Source: Escherichia phage A7_1. From it: 64,000 nucleotides of DNA. The stretch lies in the sequence record OP795442. One strand, given 5' to 3'. Shown here in pieces: positions 381 to 7,810 of this stretch. Numbering within the stretch: the first letter of the stretch is position 1; each line of letters begins with the position of its first letter. The notes under the pieces are model-generated. The model searched no databases, had not been told where the DNA came from, and was given only the letters and a program-made list of their open reading frames with translations. The translations under genes and the position numbers were made by a program.

Positions 381-440
381 TTGACAGTACATAGAAAACA
401 AGTAAACGGTATTACATAGAAAGCGGGAACACTTCCCGCT
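381..440 (+). promoter_or_regulatory. promoter (TTGACA 381-386) plus 5' hairpin AGCGGGAA/TTCCCGCT 422-440
   Basis: -35 consensus, 17-nt spacer, weak -10 AAACGG, perfect 8-bp GC stem before RBS of 462..713. Confidence 0.5.
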
Positions 441-461
441 TATATTCCAGGAGTAAGAGAA

Positions 462-713
462 ATGATCGAACAAATCAAAACTACGACGGCTAATGTAACG
501 GGTACAATATCGCACTTTATTAGTGATGAATCGCGGGGCGTTCCTTATTGTGCAGTACATGTAAACAAAAATGGCGACTACTGGTTAACGGCGTATGGAT
601 CTTATTCTTTCGGACGTAGTGCACACCAAAAGATCCTGGATAAAGTACAACCAACGGGTAAAAATATTACCGCTGAGATGTTTAATAAATCACTTGCAAA
701 GTTAAAAGCGTAA
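462..713 (+). CDS. hypothetical protein (83 aa)
   Basis: ORF with RBS GGAG upstream, downstream of promoter-hairpin cassette. Confidence 0.55.
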   Translation: MIEQIKTTTANVTGTISHFISDESRGVPYCAVHVNKNGDYWLTAYGSYSFGRSAHQKILDKVQPTGKNITAEMFNKSLAKLKA

Positions 714-753
714 AGTATAATACATCACATCAGGCGGGGAGTGTTTCCCCGCC
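694..753 (+). promoter_or_regulatory. promoter (TTGCAA 694-699, TATAAT 716-721) plus hairpin GGCGGGGA/TCCCCGCC 733-753
   Basis: Consensus -10, perfect 8-bp stem just after predicted start site. Confidence 0.55.
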
Positions 754-774
754 ACAAAATGAAAGGCCAACAAA

Positions 775-954
775 ATGAAATCAAGCATGATGGTAGCGAC
801 TGTAAACATTATCATTGGTAACGGAACTGGACACCACGAAATCATAAAAAACAAGGCTTACTCTATTAGCTCCCTCAAAAACGACATGCGTTTATCTTTG
901 GGCCAAATCCGCGCTTACTTTCGTGAAGGCTATCAGAAAAAAGTAGCAAATTAA
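775..954 (+). CDS. hypothetical small protein (59 aa), absent from ORF track
   Basis: ATG 775 to TAA 952-954 read codon by codon; preceded by promoter-hairpin cassette. Confidence 0.45.
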   Translation: MKSSMMVATVNIIIGNGTGHHEIIKNKAYSISSLKNDMRLSLGQIRAYFREGYQKKVAN

Positions 955-957
955 TAG

Positions 958-986
958 TTGACGCAAAGGTCATTTTAATTTAATCT
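958..986 (+). promoter_or_regulatory. sigma70-like promoter (TTGACG 958-963, TAATCT 981-986)
   Basis: 17-nt spacer; precedes RBS GAGG and ATG 1015. Confidence 0.4.
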
Positions 987-1014
987 ATAACAAATCGACA
1001 AATGAGGCATAATC

Positions 1015-1317
1015 ATGTTTACCAAAGCAAATGAGTATTTCTTTTTAGATTTACTTGATGAAAGTATCTTTGTAGCTATGGGCAAAAAGTCAATGGTCTT
1101 TAAACGCAAAAAAGATAATGGTGACTTTGAAGATAGCGAAGCCGTGCTAACAGTCAAGGAAGGTAAAGATCCTGCAACGTCTGTTTTAATCTACACCTTG
1201 ACCAACGGCGGTGAAGTTATCGCATCAGGGAGTAGCCATCCGATCCCAAAATCGGAAGTGAACACTGTAATTATTGGTTTTGTTGCAGCTTGTTTCTACG
1301 AGGAAAAAAGCAAATGA
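1015..1317 (+). CDS. hypothetical protein (100 aa)
   Basis: ORF with RBS and upstream promoter. Confidence 0.55.
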   Translation: MFTKANEYFFLDLLDESIFVAMGKKSMVFKRKKDNGDFEDSEAVLTVKEGKDPATSVLIYTLTNGGEVIASGSSHPIPKSEVNTVIIGFVAACFYEEKSK

Positions 1318-1478
1318 ATCCGCAAAATTTATCTTATGTAAACTGGCCCAATAAGGCTGAGAAGAAAGAAAACTTGAAACGTCTGGTTAACTTTTATCGT
1401 GAAGCTGGTCATAGTAAAGTAACAGCGGTTAAAATGGCAAAGCGCCACCTTAACAAGCCAAGTACTAAACTAATTTAA
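1314..1478 (+). CDS. hypothetical small protein (54 aa)
   Basis: ATG 1314 overlaps upstream stop TGA 1315-1317 (ATGA coupling); RBS-like AGGAAAAAAG. Confidence 0.4.
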   Translation: MNPQNLSYVNWPNKAEKKENLKRLVNFYREAGHSKVTAVKMAKRHLNKPSTKLI

Positions 1479-1486
1479 AAAACTTG

Positions 1487-1515
1487 TTGACGTTGGCTTG
1501 TGCCGTACCTATAAT
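1487..1515 (+). promoter_or_regulatory. sigma70-like promoter (TTGACG 1487-1492, TATAAT 1510-1515)
   Basis: Consensus -10 with 17-nt spacer. Confidence 0.6.
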
Positions 1516-1550
1516 GGACGGCATAGGCAAACGAAATAGGATTTATAGAA

Positions 1551-1757
1551 ATGAAAAAGAAAATTGTATATAATATTATTAGCTTTATCGCAACTATCCT
1601 CCTGGCTATTGCTGGTCTATCTTTGATTGTTGCAGTAGGATCTCTGTTTCCTGGGGCAATAAGTATTAGCATAGCTTTCGCCGCATTGTCTGTTTTTACA
1701 GGGTATGCAGGGATTAAAGTTACTTACTGGTCAGAAGATTACAAATATTCAAACTAA
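1551..1757 (+). CDS. hypothetical membrane protein (68 aa)
   Basis: Two hydrophobic segments; ORF behind consensus promoter. Confidence 0.55.
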   Translation: MKKKIVYNIISFIATILLAIAGLSLIVAVGSLFPGAISISIAFAALSVFTGYAGIKVTYWSEDYKYSN

Positions 1758-1770
1758 ATTGAGGTGTAAG

Positions 1771-1920
1771 ATGTACAAGCTATTAACCTGGGAAACAGAA
1801 TCATCGTCACCGATCAGCCGGACCTTTTTTGATTTGTGCACGGCTTACAGGCTGGCAAAGGGAGGATATCATAAGGCCCAAATCATTGATGAATTTAATG
1901 TTATCCTTTATGAATTTTAA
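1771..1920 (+). CDS. hypothetical small protein (49 aa)
   Basis: ATG 1771 with RBS GAGGTG, 13 nt after upstream stop; track ORF 1705..1920 starts inside upstream gene. Confidence 0.3.
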   Translation: MYKLLTWETESSSPISRTFFDLCTAYRLAKGGYHKAQIIDEFNVILYEF

Positions 1921-1967
1921 TCAATTCATACACTTAAAAGAAAGTTAGAAAAAGTTTTAAAAAGTGG

Positions 1968-2020
1968 TTGCAACAGGTATTGGATAGTAGTATAGTACTT
2001 TCAACGGGGCGAGATGGCCC
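1968..2020 (+). promoter_or_regulatory. promoter (TTGCAA 1968-1973, TATAGT 1991-1996) plus short hairpin 2007-2020
   Basis: 17-nt spacer; GGGC/GCCC stem downstream. Confidence 0.45.
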
Positions 2021-6241: not shown

Positions 6242-6271
6242 TTGACACGAAGGTAAGTTTTGTACTATTAT
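6242..6271 (+). promoter_or_regulatory. sigma70-like promoter (TTGACA 6242-6247, TATTAT 6266-6271)
   Basis: 18-nt spacer. Confidence 0.5.
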
Positions 6272-6315
6272 CTATCTTGTAGGGCAAACTTCAAAAACAT
6301 TAAAAAGGGTACAAA

Positions 6316-6591
6316 ATGTTACAGCTTAACGCCAAATTAGACAAAGAAATCACTGAATTTTGGGATATGGTAGTAGCTACAGATGTTGACGGTGTAGCAA
6401 GTCCTTACCTCAACAACATCGAATACCACAATGTTGCTGCAATGAATGCAGAATACGCAGAAGAAGGCGGCGCGGATAAGTTTGCTAAAAGCAACGGTTT
6501 CACTGATGCTAACGACATGATGCAATCAGTATTGTGGCAAGCCCAGGAAGATTTTCAAGAAAAAACCCTTGAATTCGCCAGACGTTCATAA
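6316..6591 (+). CDS. hypothetical acidic protein (91 aa)
   Basis: ORF with RBS AAGGG. Confidence 0.55.
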   Translation: MLQLNAKLDKEITEFWDMVVATDVDGVASPYLNNIEYHNVAAMNAEYAEEGGADKFAKSNGFTDANDMMQSVLWQAQEDFQEKTLEFARRS

Positions 6592-6643
6592 TAGAATAAT
6601 CAAACGGGCCGAAAGGCCCACTAACTAACCTAACAGGATTATC

Positions 6644-6916
6644 ATGATGAATCGCATCGACCAATTGAAAGTAGTTCAGCATATGGCCTACCGTATCCTT
6701 GAAGTTCAGAAAGGAAGCAAAAAAGAAGTATGTGAGAAAGCGTACAAGGTATTCAGCCATAAATCTGACGATTGGAAGTTGCAGAAAGTCAAAAAGGCCG
6801 ACATTCTGGGCTATCTTGAAGAAGAGATCCGACTTGCAGACCAAAAACAGATTCGTCGTGATGAGGCTGAACATAACCAGGCTTGGAAAGAATGGTTTAA
6901 AGGGTACACTAAGTAA
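6644..6916 (+). CDS. hypothetical protein (90 aa)
   Basis: ORF with RBS CAGGA. Confidence 0.5.
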   Translation: MMNRIDQLKVVQHMAYRILEVQKGSKKEVCEKAYKVFSHKSDDWKLQKVKKADILGYLEEEIRLADQKQIRRDEAEHNQAWKEWFKGYTK

Positions 6917-6925
6917 TACTAAAAC

Positions 6926-6947
6926 AGGGGTCATATGGCCCCTTTGT
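6926..6947 (+). terminator. intrinsic terminator
   Basis: Hairpin AGGGGTCATATGGCCCCT then TTTG. Confidence 0.5.
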
Positions 6948-6977
6948 AAATATCCTATTAATTTACAATTTTCCCTA

Positions 6978-7007
6978 TTGACAGAGAAGTCAGTTTTGCA
7001 CTATAGT
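6978..7007 (+). promoter_or_regulatory. sigma70-like promoter (TTGACA 6978-6983, TATAGT 7002-7007)
   Basis: 18-nt spacer. Confidence 0.5.
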
Positions 7008-7047
7008 TAAGTTCCTGGCAGCAAACAACAAAACAAAGGATAATAGC

Positions 7048-7467
7048 ATGAACATCAAATCAACTAATCCAGCATACTCTTTCGATAACGCCTTTTGTCA
7101 CGGTAGCGCCGCCAAAGGTTTTGAAATTGATGGTAAACTGGTTATCGTCAATGTTGATGGGGAAGAGGTTGCAGTTTATCCAGTAGCAGACGTTAAAAGC
7201 CGTTTACAATGCCGCATGGATGTTAACGATTATCGCCTTGATCCGGTTCGTGTAGTTGCCCTGGTTCTGGAAGAGGAAATTAAAGCAATGCAGCACAGCA
7301 ACAAATTTATCGGCGATGCACAGGACAACATGAAAGTAAGCCGCCACAAAGTTAATGAAGCACTGAAAGATTTTGGCTTTAAAGATCTAGTTATCAAACG
7401 TGATGAAAAATTCCGCTTTCGTAATGATCTGGCAAATCGCTACTATGAAATATATGAAGCACTTTAA
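7048..7467 (+). CDS. hypothetical protein (139 aa)
   Basis: ORF with RBS AAGGA. Confidence 0.6.
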   Translation: MNIKSTNPAYSFDNAFCHGSAAKGFEIDGKLVIVNVDGEEVAVYPVADVKSRLQCRMDVNDYRLDPVRVVALVLEEEIKAMQHSNKFIGDAQDNMKVSRHKVNEALKDFGFKDLVIKRDEKFRFRNDLANRYYEIYEAL

Positions 7468-7472
7468 TAAAA

Positions 7473-7494
7473 AGGCCGCAATAGCGGCCTTTGT
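7473..7494 (+). terminator. intrinsic terminator
   Basis: Hairpin AGGCCGC-AATA-GCGGCCT then TTGT. Confidence 0.55.
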
Positions 7495-7497
7495 CTA

Positions 7498-7526
7498 TTG
7501 ACACCTGGTAAGCATTTCTTTAATAT
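7498..7526 (+). promoter_or_regulatory. sigma70-like promoter (TTGACA 7498-7503, TAATAT 7521-7526)
   Basis: 17-nt spacer. Confidence 0.55.
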
Positions 7527-7578
7527 GTATCTTGTAGGGCAAGCAATAACGCAAGCCTATAAACAGGACAAACTAATC

Positions 7579-7776
7579 ATGACCATCGCTAATGAACTGA
7601 TCGCTGTACTGAATGAAGCCAAATCTAATGATATCGATGTACAGATTAAAGAGTTACCCAATGGTCTGATCGGTTGTACTTGCACTTGTGTCGGAAGTGA
7701 CTACACAGAAGTAAGCTCACTAGAATCTTTGATCCGTCACCTCAAGGCGATAGTAGAAGATTGGAGAATCATCTAA
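7579..7776 (+). CDS. hypothetical protein (65 aa), C-x-C-x-C motif
   Basis: ATG 7579 downstream of promoter; track ORF starts inside the promoter. Confidence 0.5.
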   Translation: MTIANELIAVLNEAKSNDIDVQIKELPNGLIGCTCTCVGSDYTEVSSLESLIRHLKAIVEDWRII

Positions 7777-7783
7777 TCAACAA

Positions 7784-7810
7784 AGGGGCCGCTATTGCGG
7801 CCCTTATTAT
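7784..7810 (+). terminator. intrinsic terminator closing the plus-strand block
   Basis: Hairpin GGGGCCGC-TATT-GCGGCCCC then T-rich. Confidence 0.6.

What the first reader, a model, noticed from the sequence alone, without database searches (positions are those of the whole stretch)
381..7810. Array of promoter-plus-hairpin cassettes each driving one or two small ORFs
At least a dozen times in 7.8 kb the same module recurs: TTGACA, 16-18 nt, a -10 hexamer, then about 10 nt ending in CATAG/CGTAG, then a GC stem (GGGCGG...CCGCCC variants), then RBS and a small ORF, with hairpin-T-run terminators between groups. This matches the promoter-early-stem-loop (PeSL) cassettes described for hyperplastic regions of T4-type phages, as I recall. 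The hairpin sits at the predicted 5' end of each mRNA, consistent with a stabilising or regulatory 5' structure and with cassette shuffling by recombination.
Basis: partly seen in the sequence, partly recalled or inferred. Interest (0 to 1): 0.6.

Follow-up and report, generated by a model that had tools for sequence, protein, structure and literature searches.

The report
Phage early promoter–leader-hairpin gene cassettes
An rV5-group coliphage carries a row of small early genes, most of them behind a strong host-type promoter followed by a GC hairpin at the predicted start of the message. The unit resembles the gene-shuffling 'PeSL' cassettes of T4-type phages but is built differently, and related phages show genes swapped exactly at these units.

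Summary
On the + strand of 381-7810 there are 14 near-consensus sigma-70 promoters, against 1.7±1.3 in shuffles and none on the other strand. Seventeen promoters serve 23 small genes. Nine to eleven of them carry a GC hairpin that starts 10-12 nt after the -10, about +4 of the predicted transcript.

The window is a Septuagintavirus (Vequintavirinae, rV5-like), not a T4-type phage. About 70 distinct copies of the module occur in Septuagintavirus, Vequintavirus, Phapecoctavirus, Justusliebigvirus and one IMG/VR contig. phAPEC8's record annotates the hairpin 20-mer as a "putative promoter (PHIRE)".

The hairpins have no U-tract, are strand-specific and keep pairing through compensatory changes. 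They sit a constant ~20 nt before the start codon, even in copies without a promoter. They are therefore leader elements of the downstream gene, not terminators.

The best reading is a 5'-proximal mRNA stabiliser or insulator (inferred, untested). The roughly 70-nt module (median ~57 nt from the -35 box to the end of the hairpin, plus ~20 nt of leader) also serves as portable homology for cassette exchange. Homology breakpoints fall in modules (27/45, p=6e-10) and chimeric modules exist. Cassettes are 85-92% identical across subfamilies whose core genes are ≤73% identical.

Verdict: a new variant of the PeSL kind, of moderate interest.

The parts
381..441 (+). Module 1. -35 TTGACA 381-386; -10 TAAACG 403-408 (TAAACT in relatives); CATAG 415-419; hairpin AAGCGGGAA-cac-TTCCCGCTT 421-441.
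   Evidence: ΔG -13.9, z -3.1; CM 22.4 bits. The LTH01 orthologue has a compensatory A-T to G-C change.
694..753 (+). Module 2. -35 TTGCAA; -10 TATAAT 716-721; CATCAG; hairpin GGCGGGGAG-tgt-TTCCCCGCC 733-753.
   Evidence: (ΔG -17.7, z -3.2)
958..986 (+). Promoter only (TTGACG-17-TAATCT), with no start motif and no hairpin.
1487..1522 (+). Promoter TTGACG-17-TATAAT whose -10 lies inside the hairpin GCCGT...ACGGC. CATAGG follows. There is no leader hairpin.
1968..2020 (+). Weak module: TTGCAA-17-TATAGT, then a 4-bp stem GGGC-gagatg-GCCC at 2006-2020.
   Evidence: ΔG -8.4, z -1.3
2374..2401 (+). Promoter TTTACA-16-TACAAT. Only a 3-bp stem follows it.
2686..2741 (+). Module. TTGACA-17-TAGTAT; hairpin GGGGCG-acaag-CGCCCC 2725-2741. 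This is the left edge of a cassette shared with Phapecoctavirus phiWec181.
   Evidence: (ΔG -13.6, z -3.2)
3034..3090 (+). Module. TTGACA-16-TAAAGT; CATAG; hairpin GCGCGGAA-atac-TTCCCGC 3072-3090.
   Evidence: ΔG -7.8; weak CM hit
3251..3312 (+). Module. TTGACA-16-TAGAAT; CGTAG; hairpin GGGCG[gggcaatggagcaa]CGCCC 3289-3312.
   Evidence: (ΔG -15.0, z -2.1)
3841..3895 (+). Module. TTGACA-16-CAAGAT; CATAG; hairpin GGGGCG-ataaa-CGCCCC 3879-3895.
   Evidence: ΔG -12.6, z -3.1; 15.9 bits
4404..4442 (+). Terminator-like hairpin GAGCGCCC...GGGGCG followed by TTTTATGTTGT, upstream of promoter 4467.
4467..4525 (+). Module. TTGACG-17-TATAGT; CATAG; hairpin GGGCGGCA-atag-TGCCGCTC 4506-4525. This is the commonest family and contains a G·U pair.
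   Evidence: ΔG -14.4, z -3.2; 40.6 bits, E 2e-10
4722..4778 (+). Module. TTGACA-16-TAATAT; GTGTAG; hairpin GGGCGGCA-atgt-TGCCGCTC 4759-4778.
   Evidence: ΔG -14.8; 34 bits. A73 carries a chimera of this module and module 4467.
5221..5272 (+). Module. TTGACA-16-TAATAT; CGTAG; hairpin GGGCG-gcaa-CGCCC 5259-5272.
   Evidence: ΔG -10.3; module-only matches 5214-5267 in Phapecoctavirus
5771..5799 (+). Intrinsic terminator GGGCT-loop-AGCCC followed by TTTTTT.
   Evidence: sequence
5940..5982 (+). Promoter TTGACA-17-TATTAT with CGTAGGGC but no hairpin. About 300 nt without an ORF follow.
6242..6285 (+). Promoter TTGACA-18-TATTAT with TGTAGGGC and no hairpin.
6926..6948 (+). Terminator-like hairpin AGGGGTC-atat-GGCCCCT followed by TTGT.
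6978..7007 (+). Promoter TTGACA-18-TATAGT, with no start motif and no hairpin.
7471..7497 (+). Terminator AAAGGCCGC-aata-GCGGCCTTT directly abutting promoter 7498.
7498..7562 (+). Module. TTGACA-17-TAATAT; TGTAG; weak long-loop hairpin GGGC...GCCT (GCCC in A5-4 and A73).
   Evidence: (ΔG -8.2, z -3.0)
7784..7810 (+). Terminator AGGGGCCGC-tatt-GCGGCCCTT followed by ATTAT, at the end of the array.
462..5762 (+). Nineteen small genes: 462-713, 775-954, 1015-1317, 1314-1478, 1551-1757, 1771-1920, 2050-2142, 2148-2366, 2443-2682, 2751-3032, 3110-3247, 3331-3435, 3448-3834, 3916-4110, 4122-4349, 4544-4717, 4798-5199, 5299-5505, 5502-5762.
   Evidence: Twelve of the 17 scanned match PHROG families, all of unknown function. 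No Pfam domain was found.
6316..7776 (+). Four small genes: 6316-6591, 6644-6916, 7048-7467, 7579-7776.
   Evidence: phrog_7287, phrog_11701, phrog_12277; all of unknown function

Best explanation
The region is the distal 7.4 kb of the early-gene array of a Septuagintavirus. In A5-4 the modules span about 13 kb.

Anatomy. Each expression unit has, in order: an optional near-consensus sigma-70 promoter (TTGACA, 16-17 nt, TAnnnT); a conserved start region (gTATC-AC-R-TAG); a 6-9 bp G-rich/C-rich hairpin; about 10 nt of A-rich spacer; a Shine-Dalgarno sequence; and the start codon of a 30-140 aa gene of unknown function.

Step 1 (well supported by sequence, untested). Host RNA polymerase starts at the conserved purine 8 nt after the -10. 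That purine is preceded by a pyrimidine.

Step 2 (structure well supported; function inferred). The transcript then begins R-U-A followed directly by the hairpin. The hairpin belongs to the downstream gene's leader. It most likely protects that message from 5'-end-dependent decay by RppH and RNase E. It would do so whether the 5' end comes from initiation or from processing of read-through RNA, as the ompA and papA 5' stem-loops do. It would also insulate the ribosome-binding site from upstream sequence. It is not an intrinsic terminator.

Step 3 (supported by comparative genomics, not by experiment). The same roughly 70-nt module (median ~57 nt from the -35 box to the end of the hairpin, plus ~20 nt of leader) recurs before unrelated genes and in several phage lineages. 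It therefore acts as portable homology. Crossovers within it insert, delete or replace promoter-to-promoter gene cassettes, including between Vequintavirinae and Stephanstirmvirinae.
For: Promoters. Fourteen matches of at least 10/12 lie on one strand, against 1.7±1.3 in shuffles. The -35 is TTGACA in 58 of 69 distinct modules.

Start region. Position 7 after the -10 is C and position 8 is A or G in nearly all modules, followed by T-A-G.

Hairpin position.
- The stem starts 10-12 nt after the -10 in 63 of 77 distinct modules from 11 loci.
- In predicted transcripts it occupies nt 4 to about 23 of a 40-46 nt leader, and the SD stays largely open.

Hairpin is selected as a structure.
- Seven of the 17 window leaders, six of them among the nine strong hairpins, fold better than at least 97% of shuffles.
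- Array promoters carry it far more often than other promoters: 8/12 against 4/28, p=0.002.
- On the model-based alignment of 105 copies, 92.6% of cells pair, against 77.1±1.0% in shuffles.
- Six of 8 pairs change on both sides, in 83 cells against 29±4, with 0 of 500 shuffles reaching that number.
- Orthologous modules show A-T to G-C and G·U to G-C changes, loop changes, and even different stem families before the same gene.

Hairpin is strand-specific.
- Model scores on the + strand far exceed those on the - strand.
- Non-Watson-Crick positions are 20 G·T, 12 G·A, 4 C·A and 1 C·C, with no T·G or A·C.

Hairpin is not a terminator.
- The 8 nt after the stem hold a mean of 1.6 T and 4.2 A.
- None was called by the terminator scan on the + strand.
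- Canonical terminators with T-runs are separate elements.

Hairpin is tied to the downstream gene. The distance from stem to ATG has a median of 20 nt (interquartile range 18-22) in promoter-bearing copies, and is 18-30 nt in promoter-less copies. The distance from upstream stop codon to stem changes from about 45 nt to about 8 nt between the two classes.

Precedent. RNase E cleaves more than ten times faster with an accessible 5' end than with a base-paired one, and the ompA and papA 5' stem-loops lengthen mRNA life (review PMC3997798).

Shuffling.
- Twenty-seven of 45 clustered homology endpoints fall in modules that cover 18% of the region (p=6e-10).
- The cassette 2683-3104 is 91% identical in Phapecoctavirus phiWec181, but is replaced from exactly 2683 in three sister Septuagintaviruses.
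- A73 has a chimeric module: the promoter half of module 4467 joined to the leader of module 4722. It lacks the cassette 4544-4717, and UPEC06 has other genes at that place.
- A core region, 30000-37430, is collinear at 95.5-97% in Septuagintaviruses but at most 73% identical to Phapecoctavirus. Array segments are 85-92% identical to Phapecoctavirus.
Against: - No transcript 5'-end, half-life or termination data exist for this phage group, so the start site and the stabilising role are inferences.
- Three unpaired nucleotides (R-U-A) ahead of the stem may still admit RppH. From my own recollection of the literature, it needs at least 2 unpaired nucleotides and prefers at least 3. The review I read states this only for the B. 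subtilis enzyme.
- Five to seven of the 17 promoters in the window lack a hairpin, so it is not obligatory.
- The 5' arm is always the G-rich one, and many stems share a GCGG...CCGC core. That could instead reflect common descent or recognition by a protein.
- The covariation counts come from paralogues aligned to the model, which favours the structure.
- Homology endpoints are expected to drift into any shared intergenic motif, and selection also keeps breakpoints out of genes. The breakpoint enrichment therefore does not prove that the crossovers happened there.
- Exact identity between modules within the genome is short, at most 15 nt.
Confidence: 0.5

Rival explanations
1. Classical PeSL reading. 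The stem-loops are terminators or attenuators that stop or damp transcription arriving from the upstream cassette, so that each gene is driven mainly by its own promoter.
For: - In RB49 and phi1 a G(n)-loop-C(n) stem-loop cut reporter expression as strongly as rrnB T1.
- Promoter-less hairpins sit 6-9 nt after stop codons.
- A few tails are moderately T-rich, for example TTATATT after 441 and TTATTAAAG in A73.
- Between 381 and 4400 there are almost no canonical terminators.
Against: - There is no U-tract: a mean of 1.6 T in the 8 nt after the stem, and the tails are A-rich.
- A hairpin placed after the start site would equally stop its own transcript.
- Canonical T-run terminators are used elsewhere in the same array and genome, placed upstream of promoters.
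- The distance to the downstream ATG is the constant one, not the distance to the upstream stop codon.
Confidence: 0.15
2. Regulatory tag. The GC palindrome at +4 to +25 is the binding site of a phage or host protein. It would act either as a DNA operator or as an RNA hairpin, and would switch off or otherwise co-regulate the whole early regulon.
For: - The position over the start region is ideal for a repressor.
- The commonest variant, GGGCGGCAATRGTGCCGCTC, is highly conserved across four genera.
- Many stems share GCGG...CCGC with similar spacing.
- The G-rich arm is always the 5' one.
Against: - Stem sequence, stem length (5-10 bp) and loop length (3-6 nt) vary, also before orthologous genes.
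- Pairing is kept by compensatory and G·U changes, which a double-stranded DNA operator would not favour.
- Promoter-less copies exist.
- No candidate binding protein was identified. All neighbouring genes are of unknown function.
Confidence: 0.15
3. The repeats are mainly selfish or neutral recombination scars. The hairpin has no role in expression and persists because it spreads with cassettes, by gene conversion among modules.
For: - Different hairpin families occur before the same gene, and there are chimeric modules and half modules.
- The same modules occur in several lineages.
Against: - The placement relative to the -10 and the ATG is strict, and the orientation is always with the genes.
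- Pairing is maintained through substitutions.
Confidence: 0.07
4. The conserved 20-mer is a phage-specific promoter, as annotated in the phAPEC8 record ('putative promoter determined with PHIRE').
For: The GenBank annotation of JX561091 marks RTAGGGCGGCAATGGTGCCG as a promoter.
Against: - In the great majority of copies it lies at a fixed distance downstream of a near-consensus sigma-70 promoter. About a quarter of related hairpins have no detectable promoter.
- It is a hairpin with covarying arms.
- The rV5 paper found no phage RNA polymerase or T4-type late factors, and found host-type promoters across the genome.
Confidence: 0.03

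Closest known systems
PeSL (promoter-early stem-loop) cassettes of T4-type phages (RB49/phi1, T4/PST, KVP40/nt-1; PMC2839356, PMC4122927)
   Same: - Near-consensus sigma-70 early promoter plus a G-rich/C-rich stem-loop, SD and ATG in an intergenic unit of under 100 bp.
- Clustered in a plastic region of small ORFan genes.
- Insertions, deletions and replacements between close relatives have junctions in the motifs, including chimeric and half motifs.
   Different: - The host genome is an rV5-like myovirus, not a T4-like one.
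- The stem-loop is fixed after the start site. In PeSLs it lies between or over the -35 and -10 boxes, or upstream of the promoter.
- It has no terminator signature and is anchored to the downstream start codon.
- It also occurs without a promoter.
- It has a conserved YRTAG start motif.
- Mini-circles were not tested.
5'-terminal stabiliser stem-loops of E. coli mRNAs (ompA, papA; Emory, Bouvet and Belasco 1992; Bricker and Belasco 1999, as cited in PMC3997798)
   Same: - A short stable hairpin within a few nucleotides of the 5' end.
- The sequence is free as long as it pairs.
- It would also serve messages made by processing, as for papA. That fits the promoter-less copies.
   Different: - Here the element is repeated before dozens of phage genes and is fused to a promoter.
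- The 5' end is only predicted, and stabilisation is untested.
- Three unpaired nucleotides precede the stem.
'Putative promoter determined with PHIRE' features in the phAPEC8 GenBank record JX561091
   Same: It is the same 20-mer (RTAGGGCGGCAATGGTGCCG) at the same place, directly after the 'host dependent promoter (MEME)' features.
   Different: It was annotated as a promoter. My analysis shows it is the start region plus the 5' arm, the loop and most of the 3' arm of a hairpin downstream of the real promoter.
Promoter-coupled terminators (bioRxiv 10.64898/2026.08.19.745784) and the terminator-promoter composites on this window's - strand
   Same: A stem-loop and a promoter packed into one short intergenic element.
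   Different: In those, the terminator with its U-tract precedes or overlaps the promoter. In this window, AACCGCCC-ttcg-GGGCGGTT plus a T-run abuts TTGAC at - 38011 and - 28975. In the array the order is reversed and the U-tract is absent.

Membership tests
PeSL (Arbiol 2010; Comeau 2014) | Strong sigma-70-like early promoter in the motif | tested here: met
   Fourteen matches of at least 10/12 against 1.7 expected. TTGACA in 58 of 69 modules. Promoter activity itself was not tested.
PeSL (Arbiol 2010; Comeau 2014) | Adjacent stable stem-loop, often G(n)-loop-C(n), within the same intergenic motif | tested here: met
   However, the position is fixed downstream of the predicted start site. The closest published subclass lies downstream of the -10 but just before the start site and is listed among the less common positions.
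PeSL (Arbiol 2010; Comeau 2014) | The stem-loop acts as terminator or attenuator of upstream transcription | tested here: not met
   Only the sequence signature could be tested. There is no U-tract, and none was called by the terminator scan on the + strand. Functional termination is not testable with these tools.
PeSL (Arbiol 2010; Comeau 2014) | Concentrated in hyperplastic regions next to small ORFan genes | tested here: met
   All covariance-model hits with E<0.05 lie in 381-7810. The genes match only PHROGs of unknown function. The region is fragmented among relatives, whereas a core region is collinear.
PeSL (Arbiol 2010; Comeau 2014) | Indels and replacements between close relatives have junctions in the motifs | tested here: met
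   Twenty-seven of 45 endpoints lie in modules, p=6e-10.
PeSL (Arbiol 2010; Comeau 2014) | Mini-circles form by recombination between neighbouring motifs | not testable with these tools
   This needs inverse PCR on infected cells or virions.
PeSL (Arbiol 2010; Comeau 2014) | Resident in a T4-like phage genome | tested here: not met
   The window is 97.8% identical to Escherichia phage A5-4, Septuagintavirus, Vequintavirinae.
5'-terminal mRNA stabiliser hairpin | The hairpin lies within a few nucleotides of the transcript 5' end | tested here: inconclusive
   The predicted start, a conserved Y-R at positions 7-8 after the -10, leaves 3 unpaired nucleotides. There is no experimental 5' end.
5'-terminal mRNA stabiliser hairpin | Pairing matters rather than sequence | tested here: met
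   Compensatory changes are shown. G·U pairs are tolerated, and non-pairs are few: 12 G·A, 4 C·A and 1 C·C.
5'-terminal mRNA stabiliser hairpin | Lengthens mRNA half-life in an RNase E- or RppH-dependent way | not testable with these tools
   This needs a rifampicin chase of wild-type, disrupted and compensated stems.
Rho-independent terminator | GC hairpin followed by a U-tract | tested here: not met
   True terminators are listed separately.
Any curated RNA family (Rfam 15) | Match to a covariance model | tested here: not met
   No hit in 1-9500 at E ≤ 1. Only tRNAs were found in the whole window at gathering score.

The most novel reading that the evidence does not exclude
The modules would be the attachment points of a cassette-exchange system that works across phage families. 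The hairpin itself would direct strand exchange, folded in single-stranded DNA or RNA, somewhat as integron attC sites do. Self-contained units of promoter, leader and gene would then move between unrelated large coliphages far more often than homologous recombination over 12-15 nt of identity would allow. The same hairpin would then serve as the leader element of whatever gene it lands in front of.
Probability: 0.1. Interest if true: 0.75.

Novelty: new variant of a known kind. Interest (0 to 1): 0.45.

Why it matters
If the reading holds, three things follow.

1. The promoter-plus-stem-loop cassette is not a peculiarity of T4-type phages. It would be a convergent or shared way for large virulent coliphages to keep a fast-changing set of small early genes, probably host-takeover or anti-defence genes, each with its own expression signals.

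2. A feature annotated as 'phage promoter' in public records would need correcting.

3. The hairpin would be a compact natural 5' leader, promoter plus stabiliser plus RBS in about 75 nt, that can be tested directly and may be useful in engineering.

Early cassettes are much more alike between subfamilies than core genes are. These modules therefore mark where gene flow between phage lineages takes place.

Tried and rejected
- MAFFT plus RNAalifold on 42 unaligned paralogous leaders gave no consensus structure. The stems are in different registers. I replaced this with a hand-registered seed alignment, a covariance model and a model-based alignment.
- Rfam found nothing in 1-9500 and only tRNAs in the whole window.
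- Pfam found no domains in ten array proteins. PHROGs gave only families of unknown function.
- Literature searches for transcript maps or promoter descriptions in Vequintavirinae and Stephanstirmvirinae found nothing usable. The PVP-SE1 paper is not held.
- The search for related loci with the 133-aa protein returned a single IMG/VR locus. A large set of orthologues could therefore not be built, and I used eleven loci instead.

Readings I considered and rejected:
- RNase III sites. The stems, 6-9 bp, are too short.
- Lambda-type nut or boxA-boxB sites. The GCTCACAACA tail occurs in only one hairpin family, and the loops are not conserved.
- N4-type hairpin promoters. No virion RNA polymerase is known in this group, and the hairpin lies downstream of a sigma-70 promoter.
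- A structured small RNA from promoter 5940. Its fold is no better than that of shuffles, z = +1.76.

Full report
**What the window is.** Region 381-7810 is 97.8% identical over its full length to Escherichia phage A5-4 (OP744025, 82025-89460). It matches A73, UPEC06 and LTH01 only in 4-5 pieces covering 69-87%. A5-4 and A73 belong to Septuagintavirus, a genus of Vequintavirinae (rV5-like myoviruses) described in 2024. That paper does not mention promoters. All genes under the match are annotated 'hypothetical protein'. The genome is therefore not T4-type. In A5-4 the rightward transcription unit runs from about 65.4 to 90.3 kb. Hairpin-bearing modules start near 76 kb, so the window holds only the distal part of the array.

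**Checking the observation: promoters and start motif.** On the + strand of 381-7810 there are 14 sigma-70 matches of at least 10/12. Dinucleotide shuffles give 1.7±1.3 (maximum 5), and the - strand has none (looser scan). Including weaker -35 or -10 boxes, 17 promoters precede 23 small ORFs. TAGGGC occurs 8 times against 1.25±1.1 expected, and only 3 times in the other 54.5 kb.

**Checking the observation: hairpins.** I folded the 42 nt that begin 6 nt after each -10. This gives a GC hairpin at 381, 694, 2686, 3034, 3251, 3841, 4467, 4722 and 5221, with ΔG from -7.8 to -17.7 kcal/mol. The stem always starts at the fifth or sixth base of that segment. Weaker stems follow at 1968 and 7498. Seven of the 17 leaders beat at least 97% of their own shuffles. 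The other promoters break down as follows:
- 5940 and 6242 keep the YGTAGGGC motif but have no hairpin.
- 1487 has its hairpin around the -10.
- 958, 2374 and 6978 have neither.

Among gene-proximal promoters, 8 of 12 in the array have a leader hairpin of ΔG ≤ -7.5, against 4 of 28 elsewhere in the window (Fisher p=0.002). Terminators with T-runs exist at about 4404-4442, 5771-5799, 6926-6948, 7471-7497 and 7784-7810. The description is therefore correct. The only correction is that full modules number 9-11 rather than 'at least a dozen'.

**The module in other phages.** The same unit is present in four genera and one metagenomic contig:
- Septuagintavirus: A5-4, A73, UPEC06, LTH01.
- Vequintavirus: slur16.
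- Phapecoctavirus: phiWec181, phAPEC8, phAPEC8_ev052, WPEC2.
- Justusliebigvirus: phi92.
- A 348-kb IMG/VR contig.

A 66-nt module query finds 143 phage records, almost all of them large E. coli myoviruses. From 11 loci I collected 77 distinct promoter-plus-palindrome units, of which 69 lie on the gene strand with a TTGAC -35 box. Their properties are as follows:
- The -35 is TTGACA in 58 of 69.
- The spacer is 16 nt (48 modules) or 17 nt (21 modules).
- The -10 is TAnnnT.
- The sequence that follows is g/t-T-A-T-C/T-A-C-R-T-A-G.
- The stem starts 10-12 nt after the -10 in 63 of 77.
- Arms are 5-10 bp and loops mostly 3-6 nt.

The phAPEC8 GenBank record annotates the sigma-70 part as 'host dependent promoter (MEME)'. 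It annotates the 20-mer RTAGGGCGGCAATGGTGCCG immediately after it as 'putative promoter determined with PHIRE'. The repeat had thus been seen before, but it was read as a phage promoter rather than as a start region plus hairpin.

**Is the hairpin a real, strand-specific structure?** I built a covariance model from 16 hand-registered copies. In the window it finds E<0.05 matches only at 416, 3874, 4501 and 4754, all on the + strand. Scores there are 15.9-40.6 bits, against 9.6-13 bits for the same loci read on the other strand. Nothing credible turns up in the remaining 56 kb.

Over all loci the model finds 105 copies, nearly all on the gene strand. On that model-based alignment:
- 92.6% of cells pair, against 77.1±1.0% when partners are shuffled.
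- Six of 8 pairs change on both sides.
- Eighty-three cells carry a double change, against 29±4, and 0 of 500 shuffles reach that number.
- Sliding the partners by one to three columns lowers pairing to 36-57%.

These numbers lean towards the structure, because the sequences are paralogues fitted to the model. I therefore also compared modules that precede orthologous genes:
- The 381 module reads AAGCGGGAA...TTCCCGCTT in three phages and AGGCGGGAA...TTCCCGCCT in LTH01, a compensatory A-T to G-C change.
- Several modules differ by G·U against G-C.
- Loops change in sequence and length.
- Five gene clusters carry entirely different stem families (GGGCGGCA, GCGGGGAAA, GGGCGGCGGA) at the same place.

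Non-Watson-Crick positions in the stems are 20 G·T, 12 G·A, 4 C·A and 1 C·C, with no T·G or A·C. These counts are not independent events. The 12 G·A come from one family that really folds as GGGCG...CGCCC. G·T pairs in the sense strand fit an RNA of that strand, or its single-stranded DNA, better than a double-stranded operator.

**Terminator or leader element?** The 8 nt after the stem contain a mean of 1.6 T and 4.2 A, and the terminator scan calls none of these hairpins on the + strand. Real terminators in this genome look different. One family, AACCGCCC-ttcg-GGGCGGTT plus a T-run, recurs on the - strand units and lies upstream of promoters.

The decisive anatomical point came from related phages. 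About a quarter of the G-rich hairpins without a T-run have no promoter (37 against 90; this is a mixed set that also contains some terminators and coding-internal stems). The clear cases sit 6-9 nt after a stop codon and 18-30 nt before the next ATG. In promoter-bearing copies the distance from stem to ATG is also about 20 nt (median 20, interquartile range 18-22). The distance from stop codon to stem, by contrast, is about 45 nt. The hairpin therefore travels with the downstream ribosome-binding site, not with the upstream gene end. In predicted transcripts it occupies nt 4 to about 23 of a 40-46 nt leader and does not sequester the SD.

**How it most likely works.**
- *Promoters.* The sigma-70 promoters are near consensus, so host polymerase should use them immediately after infection (inferred from sequence).
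- *Start site.* The conserved pyrimidine-purine at positions 7-8 after the -10 is the preferred start context. This is established knowledge of E. coli start-site selection, cited from memory. It gives a transcript that begins R-U-A followed by the stem.
- *Role of the hairpin.* RNase E cleaves much faster when it has an accessible 5' end than when the end is base-paired. The 5' stem-loops of ompA and papA prolong mRNA life, and papA mRNA is itself a processing product (review PMC3997798). A leader hairpin that protects the downstream cistron explains three things at once: the fixed geometry, the freedom of sequence, and the promoter-less copies. It would act whether the 5' end arises by initiation or by cleavage of read-through RNA.

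I put about 0.5 on this overall reading. The function is untested. Three unpaired nucleotides may still admit RppH. Several promoters in the array do without the hairpin.

**Rival readings.**
- PeSL-type attenuator, 0.15.
- Binding site for a protein that co-regulates the early regulon, 0.15.
- Functionless recombination scar, 0.07.
- Phage-specific promoter, 0.03.

**Cassette shuffling.** I compared window 1-9500 with five relatives by blastn. This gave 45 distinct homology endpoints inside the region. Twenty-seven lie within modules, measured from 6 nt before the -35 to the ATG, and modules cover 18% of the region (binomial p=6e-10). Several more endpoints lie 7-12 nt upstream of a -35. Three cases illustrate the pattern:

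1. All three sister Septuagintaviruses lose homology at exactly 2683, three bases before the -35 of module 2686. Phapecoctavirus phiWec181 gains homology at the same base and keeps it to 3104, at 91% identity. Where the sisters diverge they carry a promoter-less half module directly after the stop codon: cATAAAGC-GGCGGGAA-tag-TTCCCGCC.
2. A73 has one chimeric module whose promoter half, and whose hairpin loop, match window module 4467. Its leader and gene match module 4722. The 4544-4717 cassette between them is therefore absent from A73, and UPEC06 has different genes at that place.
3. Module-only matches of 50-80 nt link the subfamilies at 3829-3906, 4716-4782 and 5214-5267.

As a control, core region 30000-37430 (nrd and phoH genes) is collinear in one piece at 95.5-97.1% in all five Septuagintaviruses. 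It matches Phapecoctaviruses only in nrdD, at 71-73%. Array segments match them at 85-92%. This points to recent exchange of early cassettes between lineages.

Three caveats apply. Alignments drift into any shared motif. Selection keeps junctions out of genes. Exact identity between modules within the genome is at most 15 nt. The crossover mechanism therefore remains inferred.

**Comparison with what is known.** PeSLs are defined in T4-like phages as a strong sigma-70 early promoter plus a stem-loop, often G(n)-loop-C(n). They lie in hyperplastic regions, are associated with ORFan indels, and can form mini-circles. The stem-loop usually lies between or over the promoter boxes, or upstream of the promoter. 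It behaved as a terminator in a reporter assay.

The present modules share the promoter, the G/C stem-loop, the genomic setting and the association with indels. They fail on the host lineage and on the terminator signature, and they differ in geometry. I therefore file them as working like PeSLs for genome plasticity, but as a distinct variant whose stem-loop is a leader element.

The same genome also has the other PeSL-like layouts in its middle and late units:
- Terminator-promoter composites at - 38011, - 28975, - 44079 and - 12520.
- Promoters whose -10 lies inside a hairpin, at + 1487, - 54313 and - 52989.

**Verdict.** This is a new variant of a known kind. It had been annotated in one relative under a wrong label and had not been described for this phage group in the literature I could search. 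Interest is moderate (0.45). A specialist would not be very surprised. The case does offer a clean, testable link between a 5' leader structure and cassette exchange across phage subfamilies.

Noticed in passing
window 7810-9700: About 1.9 kb without credible ORFs. It holds several short direct repeats (8011/8441 ATTGCCAGAGTATGG; 9237/9258; 9341/9370; 8705/9520/9555) and a 21-nt inverted repeat at 8048-8068/8132-8152. It is conserved at 81-87% in relatives. In phi92 the homologous early array ends just before the right direct terminal repeat. This may be a genome terminus, a packaging region or an origin.
   Followed up: partly
window 5940-6245: A near-consensus promoter with the CGTAGGGC start motif is followed by about 300 nt of purine-rich sequence without an ORF, up to the next promoter. 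The sequence is no more structured than its shuffles (z +1.76), has no Rfam match, and is conserved in relatives. It could be a long leader or a non-coding RNA.
   Followed up: partly
window - strand: 38011, 28975, 44079, 12520, 52013: A recurring canonical terminator, AACCGCCC-ttcg-GGGCGGTT plus a T-run, often directly abuts a TTGAC promoter. These are terminator-promoter composites of the T4/PST PeSL type, in the middle and late gene units.
   Followed up: no
window + 1487-1522; - 54313; - 52989: Promoters whose -10 hexamer lies inside a short GC hairpin, for example GCCGT-acctataatgg-ACGGC. This resembles the RB49/phi1 PeSL subclass in which the stem-loop overlaps the -10.
   Followed up: no
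window - 41335-41280: TTGACA-17-TATTAT followed by the hairpin GGGAGC-aatta-GCTCCC and TCTTTT. This is the only promoter outside the array with a comparable leader hairpin, and here a T-run follows it.
   Followed up: no
L003 (A73) 4303-4333; L007 (ev052) 2577-2604; L004 5602; L006 5186: Promoter-less 'half modules': a hairpin of the same family 6-9 nt after a stop codon and 18-26 nt before the next ATG.
   Followed up: yes
L012 (IMGVR_UViG_2706795820_000001, 348 kb contig) 2542, 3731, 4186, 4503: A much larger, lower-GC (37%) viral contig carries the same promoter-hairpin modules and a 68%-identical homologue of the 4798-5199 gene.
   Followed up: partly
L001/L002 (A5-4 annotation) A54_94, A54_98, A54_101: Some annotated CDSs run through promoter modules, or lie antisense in the ORF-less stretch. 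These are probably wrong start or gene calls. For example, the likely start of the 4382-4717 ORF is the ATG at 4544, behind its RBS.
   Followed up: no
window 403-408: The -10 of module 381 reads TAAACG in the window but TAAACT in A5-4, A73 and LTH01 (TAAATT in UPEC06). This loses the conserved final T and may weaken the promoter.
   Followed up: no
window 61323-63124: A cluster of tRNA genes (Met, Tyr, Gly, Gln, Pro, plus one weaker Rfam hit) on the + strand.
   Followed up: no
window 2050-2142, 3331-3435, 1551-1757: Three very small genes in the array (30, 34 and 68 aa) are strongly hydrophobic, as read from the sequence. They may be membrane peptides.
   Followed up: no
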